The position numbers and the translations under genes were made by a program. This document shows positions 6,279-9,623 of a stretch of 61,120 nucleotides of DNA, one piece after another (the stretch's first letter is position 1; each line of letters begins with the position of its first letter). Source of the DNA: a virus (Duplodnaviria; Caudoviricetes). The stretch is taken from the IMG/VR virus record IMGVR_UViG_3300048856_000042, positions 1 through 61,120 of that record; one strand, 5' to 3'. Under the pieces are notes generated by a model. That model saw only the letters and a program-made list of their open reading frames with translations. It ran no database searches and was not told the DNA's origin.

Positions 6279-6505
6279 GTGAGTCCTTTGCCTGTGAGTC
6301 CGTTGTTTACCTGTTCGTTCAACATCAGCAGCTGTGAGTCGAGTGACTGGTAATATCCATGATAATATGCCGGCACTGGGGGATGCAAACTTCTCATTCC
6401 GGGGACTGTAGCTCTGTTAGTGTTGACGGGGATCATACCCCTCGATATGATCGATATATGCTCGCGCGCGATGCGCACATATTGATATTGAGAGGAGGGG
6501 GGAGC

Positions 6506-7081
6506 ATGACTGACGTTGGCCTCATCACCATACATGAGTTGCTTGAAGATGAGAAATATGCCAAGTACTTTGAGAAGGCTCCTGAATTGCCGGCACATTA
6601 CTTCACTGGGGGCCACGAACCCTGGCGATTGATGGTGTTGGTAAAGGGCAAATCAAGGTGGGCATCGAAGAGATTTGCCGATTACACCGAGGCGGCTGAA
6701 CGAATAGTTGAGTTGCTCCCCAAGATCAGCAATGGAGCGATCAATTGCCCGGGACTCAATTTCATGCCACCCATTCGTCATGCGCGGGTAAAGAACCGCA
6801 TTGATCCCAAAACCAAGAAGCCGGCGATCATCTCGAGGGTATGGACCCCCCAGCTTGATGGTGATATGCCCCCGCATCACTGGTGTGGGTATTGTCGACG
6901 CCCCACGATCTTCGGACACAAGGCTATGCCTCCCAAAATGTTGGGTGACTTCAAGCTGCCTGCTTCGCAGATCGCCTACCGATGCACCCTATGCGGGGCC
7001 AGTGCATCACTGATGGATATTCGTCGACCTGAGTTGAATCAGCGCTGGGATACGAATCGACCAGCTTTCTTCCATGGCTGA
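6506..7081 (+). CDS. hypothetical protein with C-terminal Zn-ribbon
   Basis: Strong RBS GAGGAGG; WCGYCRRP...CTLCG. Confidence 0.75.
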   Translation: MTDVGLITIHELLEDEKYAKYFEKAPELPAHYFTGGHEPWRLMVLVKGKSRWASKRFADYTEAAERIVELLPKISNGAINCPGLNFMPPIRHARVKNRIDPKTKKPAIISRVWTPQLDGDMPPHHWCGYCRRPTIFGHKAMPPKMLGDFKLPASQIAYRCTLCGASASLMDIRRPELNQRWDTNRPAFFHG

Positions 7082-7247
7082 GGGTCTTCCACACCTGACG
7101 ATCGAAGAGCTTGATGCCTCGATCAAGGCGCTTAGTACTTTGCGCGAATTCGTCACAAACCCCGAGCTCGAGACGTCATTTCGCCTCGTGCTTACTGAAC
7201 TTCACACTGTAGCAAGAAATGCGAGAGACATCAGCGATGGAATCTGA
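7074..7247 (+). CDS. small hypothetical protein (57 aa, below ORF-track cutoff)
   Basis: MAEGLPHLTIEELDASIKAL...; fills the gap and overlaps both neighbours. Confidence 0.6.
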   Translation: MAEGLPHLTIEELDASIKALSTLREFVTNPELETSFRLVLTELHTVARNARDISDGI

Positions 7248-7458
7248 AGCCCGTACTACTACCAAAGATCACTTTTGGGTCGAGCTCAAGTATGTGCCCG
7301 TAACAGTCGAGGAGCGAGAGGAAGATGGTTCACTCGATATCTATGCGAGCGAAGAGGGACTCGATGTCTCTGCTGATGAGGCAGTATATGGATGCTGGTT
7401 CTGTCATACCCCCCTGAATACTTCAACCTTTCCGACCGAGTGCCGGCCAGAGGATTAA
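7237..7458 (+). CDS. hypothetical protein
   Basis: GCWFC...C motif; overlaps upstream stop. Confidence 0.6.
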   Translation: MESEARTTTKDHFWVELKYVPVTVEEREEDGSLDIYASEEGLDVSADEAVYGCWFCHTPLNTSTFPTECRPED

Positions 7459-7499
7459 GCACGCGGGCAAGCGAGGTTCAAAAAATGTTCTGAGGAACC

Positions 7500-7529
7500 T
7501 TGACTGATCGCCCAATGCCCATATAAGGT
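7500..7529 (+). promoter_or_regulatory. SigA-type promoter
   Basis: TTGACT-N18-TAAGGT upstream of ORF 7579. Confidence 0.6.
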
Positions 7530-7578
7530 ACTCATATCGCCACCTCAAGGCGATACCATATCACACAAAGGACTAATC

Positions 7579-8280
7579 ATGGGATACACCGAAGCCACCC
7601 TCAAGAAGAAGTCAGTCGCTGAGCTGAAGGAGCTCGCAGAGGATCTCTTCGACGAGGATGAGCTCGATGCCATCACGACCAAGCAGCCGATCATCGACAA
7701 GCTCATGGAGAGCAACACCGATGACGACGAGGTCGATGACGACGAGCTCGATGACGAAGCAGATGACGAGGTCGAAGACGACGAAGAAGCCGACGAGCTC
7801 GATGACGAGGCTGACGACGAAGTCGACGATGACGATGACGAGCTGCCCGAGGCCGATGAGGTAGACGAGGTCGAGGAGAAGCCGGCCGCCAAGGCGAAGA
7901 CATCGGCCAAGAAGACCAAGTACACCGATGGTGGTACCAACGACAAGGGTGAGAAGCTGCTCGGAGCCAAGGAGGTCGCGACCAACATCGGTACCGACGC
8001 CAAGACCCTTCGTCAGTTCTTCCGCTCGGGCAAGTCGAGCTTCACCGCAGTGGGCGCCGGCGGTCGCTATGAGTTCAGCGAAGCCGATCTGCCGAAGATC
8101 AAGGCCGAGTTCGAGGGCTGGAAGGCCAACAAGCCGGGTCGAGGCCGCGCTGCCGAGGGCGGTACCAGCACTTCGACCAAGAAGCGTCGCGGTAAGGCCG
8201 AGCCGAAGCCCGAGGACACCATCGATGAGATCGAGGAAATCGAAGACCTCGACGACATGGATGACATCGAGCTCGACTGA
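7579..8280 (+). CDS. acidic DNA-binding protein: N-terminal HEH-like module, D/E tract, winged-HTH domain (paralogue family member 1)
   Basis: LKKKSVAELKELA; long D/E run; GAKEVATNIGTDAKTLRQFFR...GAGGRYEF; strongly biased codon use. Confidence 0.8.
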   Translation: MGYTEATLKKKSVAELKELAEDLFDEDELDAITTKQPIIDKLMESNTDDDEVDDDELDDEADDEVEDDEEADELDDEADDEVDDDDDELPEADEVDEVEEKPAAKAKTSAKKTKYTDGGTNDKGEKLLGAKEVATNIGTDAKTLRQFFRSGKSSFTAVGAGGRYEFSEADLPKIKAEFEGWKANKPGRGRAAEGGTSTSTKKRRGKAEPKPEDTIDEIEEIEDLDDMDDIELD

Positions 8281-8287
8281 TCAAGCC

Positions 8288-8327
8288 GGGGGCTGGTGAC
8301 GCGAAATGTCTTCTGGCCATCAGCCCC
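8288..8327 (+). other. GC-rich hairpin after ORF 7579 (terminator or processing element)
   Basis: GGGGCTGGTG / CATCAGCCCC. Confidence 0.5.
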
Positions 8328-8500
8328 CTCCATAATTACACAGAGACTTAGCAACTGAATGGCACTACCCGCCTGTCACGCGGGGGATGACATTCACCAG
8401 TAGGGGGGAAGTGGAATTTCCTCGAGTCTGGTAGGGGGAGGGTAGAATAGATCCCTAATAATCCATCGAAATACCCTCCCCTCAACCCTCGACTATGCGA

Positions 8501-8622
8501 GGGGCGGTAGCTCAATGGCAGAGCCGCAGAGGGTGTTGCAACCTTCGTTTAGCACCTCTCGGAGGGGTGAGTCTATACGATAGCCTGATGCTGTGATGGG
8601 AGTTCGAGTCTCCCCCGCTCCA
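8501..8622 (+). ncRNA. tRNA-Ala-like RNA with expanded multi-hairpin anticodon domain
   Basis: Acceptor GGGGCGG/CCGCTCC with G3-U70 and A73; D arm GCTC-AATGGCA-GAGC; T arm GGGAG-TTCGAGT-CTCCC; 73 nt between D and T arms. Confidence 0.7.
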
Positions 8623-8779
8623 CGGCTAGTGAACTGGTACACGGCTTGCCAACAGAAACAAATGCCAGCGAGGTCTAGTGCTCCTCGGAAGTTAAACGCA
8701 TAGAGGCAGTGGGTAGGCTGGGAGCAGCTCACTCGTGAATGACCGGACCCTTAGTAATACCCCGGCGACTGTCTCGCCT

Positions 8780-8852
8780 ACCGATATAGCTCAGTTGGCA
8801 GAGCAAGGGATTGTTAATCCCTGGGTCACTGGTTCGAGTCCAGTTATCGGTG
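8780..8852 (+). tRNA. tRNA-Asn(GTT), CCA not encoded
   Basis: Full cloverleaf: ACCGATA/TATCGGT, D arm GCTC/GAGC, anticodon arm AGGGA-TTGTTAA-TCCCT, T arm ACTGG-TTCGAGT-CCAGT, discriminator G. Confidence 0.95.
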
Positions 8853-8983
8853 CAATGCGAGGAATCAGCCACTCGCAGAAGACCTGGTGAGTGAGAGCCG
8901 CACTTGAGGCGGACTTGGTCGAACTCGACAACGCGATCCGGACTGTCGCACCAGGCACTAAACCCGAACAAAGGAGTACTCAA

Positions 8984-9223
8984 ATGGCGAAGATTGAATT
9001 GACGCTCAAGATCAATGGAGTCGATCAGGATATGCCGGCATTGGGAGACGCCCCTCTTGATCTTCAACGAGTGGGCGATATCTCAAGTGCTGTTACTCTC
9101 TCTCTCATGGCGGCACTGAATGAGGAACAGGCCGAAGCGATGGCTGCGTCCGAAGCAGCAGAAATCGAAGCCGCCCGCGTAGAGGCGGAAACGATCAACG
9201 CCCAGCATGAGGAGACAGAGTAA
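8984..9223 (+). CDS. hypothetical protein
   Basis: AAGGAG RBS before MAKIEL. Confidence 0.7.
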   Translation: MAKIELTLKINGVDQDMPALGDAPLDLQRVGDISSAVTLSLMAALNEEQAEAMAASEAAEIEAARVEAETINAQHEETE

Positions 9224-9426
9224 TGGAAAAGACAACTATGGCCGCTGCCATGACTGGGCTCATCGCGACTGCAGCTGTGCTCGGAATGGTCATCATCGGT
9301 ACCAACGCTGCTCAGGTTGAAGGCACCAAACAGTTGACTTCCTGCGTCGAGGCGGGTGGCTCTTATCTGGTGAATGATGGTAACCCACTCTGCATCATGC
9401 CTGGTCAGGATCTTCCTGAGAGGTGA
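9223..9426 (+). CDS. small membrane/secreted protein
   Basis: Hydrophobic N-terminal helix, CVEAGG...C motif. Confidence 0.7.
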   Translation: MEKTTMAAAMTGLIATAAVLGMVIIGTNAAQVEGTKQLTSCVEAGGSYLVNDGNPLCIMPGQDLPER

Positions 9427-9623
9427 AAATCACCGTCCATTGTGGTCACTGCTCGGGTACTTTCGACTTTGAACACCCAGCAGTAACTCACGCAGCTCAA
9501 CTCAAAAACTTCGGAATCTCTTGCGCTTGGTGTGGAATTCTTCTAAAAATGCCCACCAATGAGATACATATGATCCCTGATCAATTACCCGAGAACGTAA
9601 CTAGGTTGCCTCGACGCGCTTGA
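9423..9623 (+). CDS. small Zn-ribbon protein
   Basis: CGHC...CAWC. Confidence 0.65.
   Translation: MKITVHCGHCSGTFDFEHPAVTHAAQLKNFGISCAWCGILLKMPTNEIHMIPDQLPENVTRLPRRA

What the first reader, a model, noticed from the sequence alone, without database searches (positions are those of the whole stretch)
8501..8622. tRNA-Ala-like RNA whose anticodon arm is replaced by a multi-hairpin domain
Seen: a full acceptor stem with G3-U70 and A73, plus canonical D and T arms. In place of the anticodon loop, stem CGCAG/CTGTG (8525-8529/8591-8595) closes about 60 nt that can fold into three hairpins: GAGGGT-GTTGCA-ACCTTC (UGC in the loop), CACCTCT-CGG-AGGGGTG and CTAT-ACG-ATAG. Known: G3-U70 and A73 are the AlaRS identity elements, AlaRS ignores the anticodon, and tmRNA uses the same logic. 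The insert is far too short for a group I intron or a tmRNA tag domain. Inference: an alanylatable tRNA mimic, possibly a decoy for anticodon nucleases or tRNA-sensing defences, a mini-tmRNA-like ribosome ligand, or a tRNA with an unusual intron.
Basis: partly seen in the sequence, partly recalled or inferred. Interest (0 to 1): 0.82.

Follow-up and report, generated by a model that had tools for sequence, protein, structure and literature searches.

The report
Anticodon-less tRNA-shaped phage RNA gene
This soil phage carries a real, conserved RNA gene that keeps the whole upper body of a tRNA but has a long folded insert where the codon-reading loop should be, and the same RNA turns up in otherwise unrelated Microbacterium phages, so it is kept for a job that is still unknown.

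Summary
Window 8501-8622 (+) is a genuine tRNA-shaped gene. Rfam tRNA scores it 40.6 bits (cut-off 29), with 69 nt in place of the anticodon arm. Default ARAGORN and Rfam miss it.

The same 122-nt RNA occurs, unannotated, in Microbacterium phages SallyK, Nike and Hubbs. It is the only nucleotide similarity between those genomes and the window.

Window and SallyK differ at 29 columns. Sixteen of these form eight pairs changed on both sides, and no helix has a one-sided change.

Hairpins 2 and 3 are really one long bulged hairpin (8545-8580), and only 3 bp of the closing stem are conserved.

G3-U70 and A73 are present here but not in Hubbs.

Cluster EG and EA Microbacterium phages each carry one tRNA-like gene with a different closed arm instead of an anticodon loop. 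GenBank names these inconsistently.

Intron, tmRNA and pseudogene readings fit poorly. Function and expression are untested.

This scan has noted similar anticodon-less phage tRNA mimics on other DNA.

The parts
8501..8622 (+). Whole tRNA-shaped RNA gene (122 nt, no encoded CCA)
   Evidence: Rfam RF00005 40.6 bits, model positions 1-71. 122-nt homologues in SallyK, Nike and Hubbs.
8501..8507 (+). Acceptor stem, 5' strand (GGGGCGG), pairing with 8615-8621. Contains G3 of the G3-U70 pair.
   Evidence: 7 of 7 pairs kept in all 3 distinct sequences; 4 pairs changed on both sides.
8615..8622 (+). Acceptor stem, 3' strand (CCGCTCC), plus discriminator A73 (8622)
   Evidence: The next bases are CGG, so CCA is not encoded.
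8510..8524 (+). D arm (GCTC-AATGGCA-GAGC) with G18 G19
   Evidence: Aligned to the D arm of RF00005. Invariant in homologues except for one extra loop base.
8598..8614 (+). T arm (GGGAG-TTCGAGT-CTCCC)
   Evidence: Aligned to the T arm of RF00005. Invariant in homologues.
8525..8597 (+). Insert domain that replaces the anticodon arm and variable loop
   Evidence: 69 nt skipped by the tRNA model. Conserved in SallyK, Nike and Hubbs.
8527..8532 (+). 5' strand of two candidate 3-bp helices. 8527-8529 pairs with 8591-8593; 8530-8532 pairs with 8584-8586. The 3' strands are separated by the bulge 8587-8590.
   Evidence: Each helix has one pair changed on both sides (A-U to G-C, A-U to C-G). Free-energy folding of either sequence does not favour them. 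Provisional.
8535..8547 (+). Invariant 13-nt strand GTTGCAACCTTCG. It contains the 8-nt palindrome GTTGCAAC and the letters TTGCAA.
   Evidence: Invariant in all 4 sequences. Occurs once in the window.
8545..8580 (+). Long bulged hairpin: lower stem 8545-8552/8573-8580, 3-nt bulge 8570-8572, upper stem 8553-8558/8564-8569
   Evidence: 14 pairs, 3 of them changed on both sides, and one U-U mismatch in the window only.
8434..8481 (+). Context: strong upstream hairpin (GGGGGAGGGTA ... TACCCTCCCC) that ends 19 nt before the RNA's first base
   Evidence: Fold of 8421-8500, -29.9 kcal/mol. Hairpins also lie just upstream of the related genes in cluster EG phages, Schubert and Andromedas.
8623..8700 (+). 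Context: conserved spacer between the tRNA-like gene and tRNA-Asn
   Evidence: 89.9% identical over 79 nt to L023, where it follows a normal tRNA-Leu. Covered by soil-metagenome contigs.
8780..8853 (+). Context: canonical tRNA-Asn(GTT)
   Evidence: ARAGORN. Rfam 71.3 bits.

Best explanation
This is a functional, non-decoding, tRNA-shaped RNA gene. The acceptor stem, D arm, T arm and elbow form an intact tRNA scaffold. A selected structured insert takes the place of the anticodon arm: a conserved 13-nt strand followed by a 14-bp bulged hairpin.

Inferred mechanism:
1. The RNA is transcribed with the plus-strand gene island 6359-9623.
2. Host RNase P and 3' tRNA-processing enzymes cut it out, and it receives CCA.
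3. The window copy, which has G2-C71, G3-U70, G4-C69 and A73, is probably charged with alanine by host AlaRS.
4. Lacking an anticodon loop, it cannot read codons.
5. It acts in trans as a stable tRNA-scaffolded ligand for a host factor, with the insert as the specific part.

Shown: the gene, the scaffold, selection on the structure, transfer between unrelated phages, and the lack of a shared phage protein partner.

Inferred: expression, processing, charging, action in trans and the target.

Rough odds:
- Real, selected RNA gene: 0.9.
- Non-decoding: 0.85.
- Alanylated in this phage: 0.45.
- Acts in trans through the insert: 0.5.
For: - Scaffold: Rfam tRNA 40.6 bits against a cut-off of 29, with all arms except the anticodon arm aligned.
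- Selection on structure: window and SallyK differ at 29 of 123 columns. Sixteen lie in helices and form eight pairs changed on both sides. Seven of these remain standard pairs; the eighth is U-U in the window and C-G in SallyK. No one-sided helix changes occur.
- Shuffle and slide controls: 9 pairs with a change on both sides, against 2.9 +/- 1.4 in shuffles (0 of 500 reach it) and 0-1 when partners are slid.
- Horizontal spread: the element is the only blastn match at E<=1e-5 between Hubbs and SallyK (111 nt, 100%), window and SallyK (78.4%), and window and Hubbs (79.5%).
- No shared phage partner: no window ORF of 60 aa or more matches Hubbs, and only one matches SallyK (28 aa), by tblastn at 1e-4. 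No phage protein co-occurs with the RNA.
- Not a bacterial sequence: a 20-base pattern from the insert gave only chance hits in 185,579 species genomes, JGI metagenomes and IMG/VR.
- A wider class: SallyK, Hubbs, Squash, Fizzles and the L021 record each have exactly one RF00005 hit, 41-51 bits, and it is such an odd gene. Their anticodon arms are closed hairpins with 3- to 6-nt loops or larger inserts.
- Alanine marks: G3-U70 plus A73 occur on 4 different acceptor sequences: GGGGCGG, GGGCAGG, GGGCGGG and GGGACGG. Bacterial AlaRS reads no anticodon base (identity table in PMC9976931).
Against: - No expression data. No RNA run holds the stretch.
- Only 3 distinct sequences and 2 insert variants exist, so the covariation rests on one divergence.
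- Hubbs carries the insert on a U3-A70 stem. Of 8 acceptor types seen in the wider class, 4 lack G3-U70 (Hubbs, Phinky, Schubert, Andromedas). Charging with alanine therefore cannot be a general requirement.
- The determinant G20 is apparently C here (my numbering).
- The two 3-bp helices that tie the insert to the scaffold are 8.6-8.7 kcal/mol worse than lineage-specific folds.
- No target for the invariant strand was found in the window.
- The compact position between genes, with a hairpin just upstream, also fits a purely cis-acting processing signal.
Confidence: 0.5

Rival explanations
1. It is a cis-acting processing signal, like plant mitochondrial t-elements or the mascRNA at the end of MALAT1. 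The tRNA shape exists only so that RNase P and the 3' tRNA-processing enzymes cut the polycistronic transcript there. The upstream mRNA is left ending in a protective hairpin. The excised RNA is a by-product.
For: - Only the parts read by the processing enzymes are constant across the class. The anticodon domain and the acceptor identity vary.
- The genes sit between co-oriented protein genes.
- A strong hairpin ends 3-19 nt upstream. In cluster EG the next gene's ribosome-binding site follows within about 20 nt.
- In relatives of the window a normal tRNA occupies the same slot (L023 tRNA-Leu). In Huwbert and Triscuit a CDS does.
- t-elements as mRNA end-formation signals: PMC1920247 (title and abstract seen in the listing).
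Against: - A cutting signal does not need an invariant 13-nt single strand or a 14-bp hairpin kept by compensatory change.
- It does not need G3-U70 kept on four different stems.
- It does not explain why the interior cassette moved 100% identical into an unrelated genome.
- The window already has a canonical tRNA-Asn 157 nt downstream that could serve as a cutting signal.
Confidence: 0.2
2. It is a decaying tRNA-Ala(UGC) pseudogene, or a neutral product of recombination among phage tRNA genes. The insert is junk carried along.
For: - TTGCAA in the invariant strand looks like positions 33-38 of a tRNA-Ala(UGC) anticodon loop (my recall).
- Recombination breakpoints lie inside the gene. Hubbs and SallyK differ only in acceptor pairs 1-5.
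- Soil contigs share 8595 onward but differ upstream. One has a normal CAU anticodon arm, by my reading of the loose end.
- Neighbouring relatives lack the element.
Against: - Zero one-sided substitutions in 36 modelled pairs, against eight pairs changed on both sides.
- All tertiary-core positions of the D and T loops are kept.
- The RNA is retained as the only shared DNA in three unrelated genomes.
- It is the sole tRNA-model hit kept by many phages.
Confidence: 0.07
3. It is a decoding tRNA after all. Either the insert is removed, or the GAGGG/CCTTC hairpin with its 8-nt loop containing UUGCAA serves as an unusual anticodon arm beside a giant variable arm.
For: - The hairpin GAGGG-TGTTGCAA-CCTTC can be drawn in the window, and free-energy folding predicts the 6-bp form.
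- G3-U70 would match a UGC (alanine) anticodon.
- Hubbs encodes an RNA ligase and a polynucleotide kinase.
Against: - In SallyK, Nike and Hubbs two of that hairpin's pairs are mismatches, and its base competes with the covarying lower stem.
- A 4-nt linker and a multi-helix junction would displace the arm from the D stem.
- ARAGORN with introns gives a different junk call for each type-A sequence tried: Leu(gag) for the window and Asp(gtc) for SallyK, Nike and Hubbs.
- No intron family matched in Rfam at E<=10.
- No window ORF matched any part of Hubbs, including its ligase and kinase genes.
- Class members of normal length have 3- to 6-nt loops without U33.
Confidence: 0.08
4. It is a message-less mini-tmRNA, like the 'TLD only' gene of mycobacteriophage DS6A. 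It would titrate SmpB or enter stalled ribosomes.
For: - G3-U70 and A73, as in tmRNA.
- The anticodon arm is replaced by a long irregular helix.
- PMC4131195 (passages read) lists DS6A as 'TLD only' and cites Mao et al. 2009 for inhibition of tmRNA by such a molecule.
Against: - A full 4-bp D stem and a canonical D loop are present. From recall, the tmRNA tRNA-like domain lacks these, and SmpB occupies that space.
- ARAGORN -m finds no tmRNA.
- No tmRNA family matched in Rfam at E<=10.
- No conserved tag frame.
- Hubbs lacks G3-U70.
Confidence: 0.05

Closest known systems
Canonical bacterial or phage tRNA (Rfam RF00005), acceptor of the tRNA-Ala type
   Same: 7-bp acceptor stem, U8, a 4-bp D stem with G18 G19, a 5-bp T stem with a TTCGAGT loop, A73 and G3-U70. 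Scores above the family cut-off.
   Different: There is no 5-bp anticodon stem with a 7-nt loop and U33. About 70 structured nt stand in its place. Standard finders miss it.
The single odd tRNA-like genes of Microbacterium phage clusters EG (Squash, OneinaGillian, Fizzles, Phinky and relatives) and EA (Schubert, Andromedas)
   Same: Same scaffold. In SallyK and Nike it also shares the locus and acceptor stem with Squash and Fizzles. One such gene per genome, lying between co-oriented genes of the replication region, and no anticodon loop.
   Different: Those genes carry short closed arms with 3- to 6-nt loops, a D-loop insert, or a GGG-internal loop-hairpin arm instead of the 70-nt domain. GenBank leaves them unannotated or calls them tRNA-Ser, Tyr, Val, Pro, Thr or OTHER. 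PMC7302621 counts 0 tRNAs for EG and 'a single tRNA-Ala' for EA subclusters (passages read).
tRNA-like domain of tmRNA, including the 'TLD only' gene of mycobacteriophage DS6A (PMC4131195)
   Same: Alanine-type acceptor, T arm, no anticodon, encoded by a phage of an actinobacterium.
   Different: A full D arm is present. No tmRNA model matches, no tag frame is conserved, and the insert is a closed arm rather than helix 2 leading to pseudoknots.
tRNA-like processing signals: plant mitochondrial t-elements (PMC1920247) and mascRNA of MALAT1 (recalled)
   Same: A tRNA shape between genes, with a hairpin just upstream that would be left at the new 3' end.
   Different: Those signals, as I recall, need little beyond the acceptor and T minihelix. 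This RNA keeps a full elbow and a selected insert. Processing was not tested.
Bacteriophage T4 species 1 and species 2 stable RNAs of the tRNA cluster (recalled; no text found)
   Same: Phage-encoded stable RNAs of about 120-140 nt, next to tRNA genes, with tRNA-like ends and unknown function.
   Different: The resemblance rests on recall and on an earlier scan note.

Membership tests
tRNA (Rfam RF00005) | Score at or above the gathering cut-off, with acceptor, D and T arms aligned | tested here: met
   40.6 bits against 29, E 3.4e-7, model positions 1-71. Lost with default filters or on the whole window.
tRNA (Rfam RF00005) | 5-bp anticodon stem closing a 7-nt loop with U33 and a 3-nt anticodon | tested here: not met
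   18 model positions are replaced by 69 nt. ARAGORN default makes no call. With introns allowed it gives inconsistent forced calls.
Bacterial tRNA-Ala identity set (PMC9976931 table: A73, G2-C71, G3-U70, G4-C69, G20) | Acceptor determinants A73, G2-C71, G3-U70 and G4-C69 | tested here: met
   GGGGCGG/CCGCTCC plus A. SallyK and Nike keep G3-U70 and A73 but have C4-G69. Hubbs has U3-A70.
Bacterial tRNA-Ala identity set | G20 in the D loop | tested here: inconclusive
   The D loop is AATGGCA. By my numbering, position 20 is C. This is a minor determinant and the numbering of a 7-nt loop is uncertain.
Bacterial tRNA-Ala identity set | Actual charging with alanine | not testable with these tools
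   Needs an aminoacylation assay.
tmRNA, or tmRNA of the 'TLD only' kind | Recognised by tmRNA models | tested here: not met
   ARAGORN -m finds 0 genes. No tmRNA family in Rfam at E<=10 on 8350-8900.
tmRNA, or tmRNA of the 'TLD only' kind | Reduced D region without a D stem; tag reading frame (full tmRNA) | tested here: not met
   A 4-bp D stem is invariant. The frame ATFV* in the window runs without a stop through the SallyK RNA.
Intron-containing tRNA (group I, or bulge-helix-bulge type) | A recognisable intron whose removal restores a canonical anticodon arm | tested here: not met
   No intron family at E<=10. The insert is about 70 nt. Inspection shows no excision that gives 5 bp plus a 7-nt loop. 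Relatives of 68-87 nt also lack an anticodon loop.
Bacterial Y RNA / YrlA tRNA-like module | Match to Y RNA models; ends in the Ro-binding stem rather than the acceptor stem | tested here: not met
   No such family at E<=10. Here the ends lie in the acceptor stem. The YrlA topology is recalled.
tRNA-like processing signal (t-element, mascRNA type) | Cleavage by RNase P and RNase Z that defines the ends of neighbouring mRNAs | not testable with these tools
   The context fits: co-oriented genes and an upstream hairpin. There are no RNA data.

The most novel reading that the evidence does not exclude
The RNA is a horizontally mobile, tRNA-scaffolded effector. Host enzymes mature it, and in most lineages alanylate it, like a tRNA. 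The swappable anticodon-domain cassette is a bait or inhibitor for a host tRNA-directed defence or toxin of Microbacterium. Candidates are an anticodon nuclease or an acceptor-end-modifying AbiEii/MenT-type nucleotidyltransferase. On this reading, the five or more different cassettes at one locus in cluster EG phages would record an arms race, and the cassette moves between unrelated phages by recombination through the conserved D and T arms.
Probability: 0.13. Interest if true: 0.85.

Novelty: new variant of a known kind. Interest (0 to 1): 0.62.

Why it matters
Why phages carry tRNA genes is still debated.

- **An overlooked set of genes.** Many Microbacterium phages keep exactly one tRNA-shaped gene that cannot read codons. 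The gene is selected for structure, and in this variant it has spread between genomes that share nothing else. Codon supply cannot explain such genes.
- **Inconsistent annotation.** Standard finders miss them, or they are named inconsistently: tRNA-Ser, Tyr, Val, Pro, Thr, OTHER, or nothing.
- **A possible uncoupling of charging from decoding.** If the RNA is charged with alanine, it would be a natural case of this outside tmRNA.
- **A possible natural RNA scaffold.** If the insert is the active part, it is a natural counterpart of the engineered tRNA scaffolds used to express RNAs.
- **Testable now.** SallyK, Nike, Hubbs and their host M. foliorum NRRL B-24224 are cultured, non-pathogenic teaching strains.

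This scan has met similar anticodon-less phage tRNA mimics several times.

Tried and rejected
- **More homologues of the insert.** Exact-pattern scans of IMG/VR, JGI metagenomes and one genome per prokaryotic species gave 0, 2, 4 and 3 hits. All were chance matches without tRNA context. More divergent relatives would be missed by exact patterns.
- **Loci reached through the neighbouring gene.** The search for related loci with the neighbouring protein alone found nothing. With an alignment of 26 homologues it found 3 loci. None had the type-A insert. One had another odd tRNA-like gene (L021) and one a normal tRNA-Leu (L023).
- **RNA evidence.** No RNA holder is listed for 8281-8900. This says nothing about expression.
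- **Soil-metagenome contigs.** No contig of the four runs laid covers 8443-8594. Contigs of relatives begin to match at 8595 or 8610. This shows variation at the locus, not absence of the element elsewhere.
- **Antisense target.** The invariant 13-mer has no complementary site in the window beyond chance. There were 4 matches at up to 2 mismatches, including the strand itself, and 3 of 100 shuffles reach 4.
- **Palindrome.** GTTGCAAC occurs once in the window. 36 of 100 shuffles have at least one, so there is no sign of a dispersed protein-binding site. The dimer folds are dominated by swapping of the long hairpin and were not taken as evidence.
- **Co-occurring protein.** None was found. The RNA ligase and polynucleotide kinase of Hubbs have no counterpart among window ORFs. 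Squash and Fizzles genomes were not fetched for this test.
- **Other readings.** tmRNA, intron, Y RNA and C/D-box readings were rejected as described under membership. The sR36 hit on the minus strand at 8430-8489 scores 10.7 bits against a cut-off of 55 and is noise. The minus-strand ORF 8493-8732 (79 aa) gives only E about 0.004 to the same place in SallyK and Hubbs. I take that to reflect the shared RNA, not a protein.
- **Literature.** Searches found no paper describing these genes as anticodon-less. Supplements were closed, and the tables of PMC7302621 may hold per-phage tRNA calls that I could not see.
- **Host tRNA-Ala genes** could not be fetched for comparison.
Full report
**What is in the sequence.**
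Window 8501-8622 on the plus strand reads as follows:
- a 7-bp acceptor stem, GGGGCGG with CCGCTCC, with G3-U70;
- U8 and A9;
- a D arm, GCTC-AATGGCA-GAGC;
- about 70 nt of other sequence;
- a T arm, GGGAG-TTCGAGT-CTCCC;
- discriminator A73, followed by CGG, so CCA is not encoded.

ARAGORN in default mode reports only the neighbouring tRNA-Asn at 8780-8853. Rfam at gathering thresholds does the same, as does an E-value search of the whole window.

When only 8350-8900 is searched with permissive filters, the Rfam tRNA model matches 8501-8622 from model position 1 to 71. The score is 40.6 bits (cut-off 29, E 3.4e-7), and 69 nt stand in place of 18 model positions. ARAGORN with introns allowed forces a tRNA-Leu(gag) with a 36-nt 'intron' and a poor stem. 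It gives different forced calls on the homologues.

The free-energy fold is not exceptional for the composition (z = -1.31). The case therefore rests on the tRNA model and on comparison with homologues.

**Genome context.**
The window is a 61-kb IMG/VR virus record. It encodes a RepB-primase/AAA protein, a family A DNA polymerase with a UDG-like domain, a PD-(D/E)XK nuclease and an AAA_24 protein.

The element lies in a small plus-strand island, 6359-9623, between minus-strand genes. The order is:
- a 233-aa acidic DNA-binding-type protein gene (7579-8280);
- a strong hairpin at 8434-8481;
- the element;
- a 157-nt spacer;
- tRNA-Asn;
- three small ORFs.

No sigma-70-like promoter or terminator pattern lies next to the element.

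The upstream protein's nearest GenBank relatives are in Microbacterium phages Huwbert and Triscuit and in Curtobacterium phage Shrew. In Huwbert and Triscuit a 381-bp CDS occupies the element's place before tRNA-Asn.

**Homologues and selection.**
Distant blastn against 50,697 phage records finds the element in only three: Microbacterium phages SallyK, Nike and Hubbs. It is unannotated in all three. Each copy is exactly 122 nt. Nike is identical to SallyK.

Hubbs is identical to SallyK across 111 interior nt. It has a different, fully paired acceptor stem, GATGCGG/CCGCATC.

On the 4-sequence alignment (3 distinct rows) I tested a structure made of:
- the acceptor, D and T helices;
- two 3-bp helices, 8527-8529/8591-8593 and 8530-8532/8584-8586, whose 3' strands are separated by a 4-nt bulge;
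- one long hairpin: lower stem 8545-8552/8573-8580, a 3-nt bulge, and upper stem 8553-8558/8564-8569.

The counts are:
- 99.1% of 108 cells pair;
- 9 of 36 pairs show a change on both sides;
- no pair shows a one-sided change;
- the only unpaired cell is a U-U in the window.

In the controls, shuffles give 2.9 +/- 1.4 such pairs (0 of 500 reach 9). Sliding the partners by 1-3 columns gives 0-1.

Window and SallyK differ at 29 of 123 columns. Sixteen fall in helices and form exactly eight pairs changed on both sides. Thirteen are in unpaired columns.

- its hairpin 3 pairs in 50% of cells;
- its hairpin 1 loses two of five pairs in the other lineage;
- the two outer pairs of its closing stem fail.

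One caution applies. There are only two insert variants. The two 3-bp helices each rest on one compensatory pair. Free-energy folding prefers lineage-specific local hairpins by 8.6-8.7 kcal/mol. How the long hairpin is attached to the scaffold is therefore unresolved. The scaffold and the long hairpin are solid.

The 13-nt strand GTTGCAACCTTCG (8535-8547) is invariant. It contains an 8-nt palindrome and the letters TTGCAA.

**Horizontal spread.**
I fetched the rest of the SallyK and Hubbs genomes and compared them locally.
- At E<=1e-5 the element is the only blastn match between Hubbs and SallyK (111 nt, 100%).
- It is the only match between the window and SallyK (125 columns, 78.4%).
- It is the only match between the window and Hubbs (117 columns, 79.5%).
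- By tblastn at 1e-4, no window ORF of 60 aa or more matches Hubbs. Only one matches SallyK, over 28 residues.

Three genomes that share essentially nothing else thus share this RNA. No phage protein co-occurs with it, so any partner must be a host component.

The insert was not found outside phages. A 20-base pattern spanning the D stem and the invariant strand gave only chance hits in IMG/VR, JGI metagenomes and one genome from each of 185,579 species.

**A wider class.**
SallyK and Nike belong to the Squash group, which is cluster EG in PMC7302621 (passages read). At the same locus, its relatives have the same flanks and mostly the same acceptor stem, but other interiors:
- Squash, Mashley, AluminumJesus and Blab have an 87-nt gene with a hairpin in the D loop and a 6-bp arm capped by GATG.
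- Fizzles has a 74-nt gene with a bulged 6-bp arm capped by CGAG.
- Kelcole, Marcie and OneinaGillian have a 73-nt gene with a 5-bp arm and a 6-nt loop.
- Phinky has a 77-nt gene with a 7-bp arm and a tetraloop.

Gazebo, BabyDotz, StrawberryJamm, Rowlf, Hyperion, Tempo, Fregley and RobinRose are assigned to these types only from their blast rows.

A relative of the window's own lineage (IMG/VR locus L021) carries an 85-nt gene whose arm is GGG-internal loop-5-bp hairpin-CCC. Phage Schubert (EA8) has the same arm, with a compensatory A-T to C-G change, on a different acceptor stem and T arm. Andromedas (EA2) has a 68-nt gene with a 2-bp anticodon stem.

In whole-record searches, SallyK, Hubbs, Squash, Fizzles and the L021 record each have exactly one tRNA-model hit, at 41-51 bits. 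In each case it is the odd gene.

GenBank treats these genes in different ways: as nothing, or as tRNA-Ser(gga), tRNA-Tyr(ata), tRNA-OTHER, tRNA-Val(gac), tRNA-Pro(agg), tRNA-Ser(tga) or tRNA-Thr. PMC7302621 counts no tRNA for EG phages and 'a single tRNA-Ala' for several EA subclusters.

**Alanine identity.**
G3-U70 with A73 occurs on four different acceptor sequences:
- GGGGCGG in the window;
- GGGCAGG in SallyK, Squash and Fizzles;
- GGGCGGG in Kelcole;
- GGGACGG in L021.

It is absent from Hubbs (U3-A70), Phinky (G3-C70, U73), Schubert (G3-C70) and Andromedas (A3-U70, C73).

The window copy has A73, G2-C71, G3-U70 and G4-C69. These are four of the five bacterial alanine determinants tabulated in PMC9976931, which lists no anticodon element for alanine. 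Charging of the window RNA is therefore plausible. It cannot be a requirement of the whole class, nor of the insert.

**Variation at the window's own locus.**
- In L023 a canonical tRNA-Leu(taa) sits where the element sits. It is followed by a spacer 89.9% identical to 8622-8699 and then by tRNA-Asn.
- Two soil-metagenome contigs, of 57,128 and 15,830 nt, match the window from 8595 onward (T arm, 3' acceptor strand, spacer) but differ upstream.
- By my reading of the 30 loose letters of the second contig, it has a normal 5-bp stem and a 7-nt loop with anticodon CAU.
- A third contig replaces 8443-8609 with 425 other letters.

Together with the Hubbs and SallyK breakpoints, this shows recombination inside tRNA(-like) genes. 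The junctions lie at the conserved D and T arm sequences.

**Interpretation.**
A decaying pseudogene is unlikely, given the substitution pattern and the spread between unrelated genomes.

An intron is unlikely for three reasons. No excision restores an anticodon arm. No intron model matches. Relatives of normal length also lack an anticodon loop.

A mini-tmRNA is unlikely. A full D stem is present, no tmRNA model matches, and the short frame ATFV* is open-ended in SallyK. The DS6A 'TLD only' precedent (PMC4131195) remains the nearest published idea for an alanine-type, anticodon-less phage RNA.

A purely cis-acting processing signal fits the compact intercistronic position, the upstream hairpins and the variable arms. 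It does not explain the invariant strand, the compensated hairpin or the transfer of the interior cassette.

My best reading, at about 0.5, is a stable, non-decoding, tRNA-scaffolded RNA. Host tRNA enzymes would mature it. In this phage it would probably be alanylated. It would act in trans through its insert on a host factor.

Nothing on expression, processing, charging or the target was measured. No RNA run holds the stretch.

**Comparison with earlier notes of this scan.**
A word search returned several follow-ups on other phage genomes describing anticodon-less tRNA mimics. Some had G3-U70 and some had swappable inserts. I treated these as leads only. They agree that the kind recurs.

I found no paper that describes the Microbacterium-phage genes as anticodon-less. 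One survey of viral structured RNAs mentions tRNA-like candidates only in general terms (PMC10690425, passages read).

Noticed in passing
window 8623-8700: The spacer after the element is about 90% identical to the spacer that follows a normal tRNA-Leu in IMG/VR locus L023. Several soil-metagenome contigs also cover it. It is conserved whatever gene precedes it, so it could be a further small RNA or a processing element. The two-sequence fold shows three small hairpins without covariation.
   Followed up: partly
window 8434-8481: A strong 10-11-bp hairpin (GGGGGAGGGTA/TACCCTCCCC) ends 19 nt before the element. Similar U-tract-less hairpins end 3-9 nt before the related genes in cluster EG phages, Schubert and Andromedas (L005, L029, L030).
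   Followed up: partly
L034 1593-3856 (Microbacterium phage Hubbs genes 76-77): Hubbs is annotated with an RNA ligase next to a polynucleotide kinase, the classic tRNA-repair pair. This hints that tRNA-cleaving defences matter for phages of this host. No window ORF matched any part of Hubbs at E<=1e-4.
   Followed up: partly
Soil-metagenome contig laid on window 8595-8698 (run X4): A relative has what reads as a canonical CAU anticodon arm joined to the same T arm and the same U70-bearing 3' acceptor strand as the element. If its unseen 5' strand also has G3, it would be a CAU-reading tRNA with alanine identity. The contig could not be fetched.
   Followed up: no
window 7579-8280: The upstream 233-aa protein has very acidic tracts and an invariant core (LLGAKEVA ... 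GGRYEF). It has 147 relatives in the protein collection, many on 57-68-kb contigs. Some carry PF02037 or PF07498 (by recall, SAP and Rho N-terminal domains).
   Followed up: partly
L008 1443-1529; L024 327-402; L025 327-400; L028 321-398; L029 394-478; L030 4841-4909: GenBank annotations of the related odd genes disagree: tRNA-Ser(gga), tRNA-Tyr(ata), tRNA-OTHER ?(Ile|Tyr)(at), tRNA-Val(gac), tRNA-Pro(agg) and tRNA-Ser(tga). Identical or near-identical copies in sister phages are left unannotated.
   Followed up: yes
H172-H177 (Arthrobacter phages TaylorSipht, Kepler, Melons, Kuleana; Microbacterium phage RubyRalph): Unannotated partial matches to the T arm and acceptor half of the Kelcole-type gene suggest more cryptic tRNA-like genes in Arthrobacter phages.
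   Followed up: no
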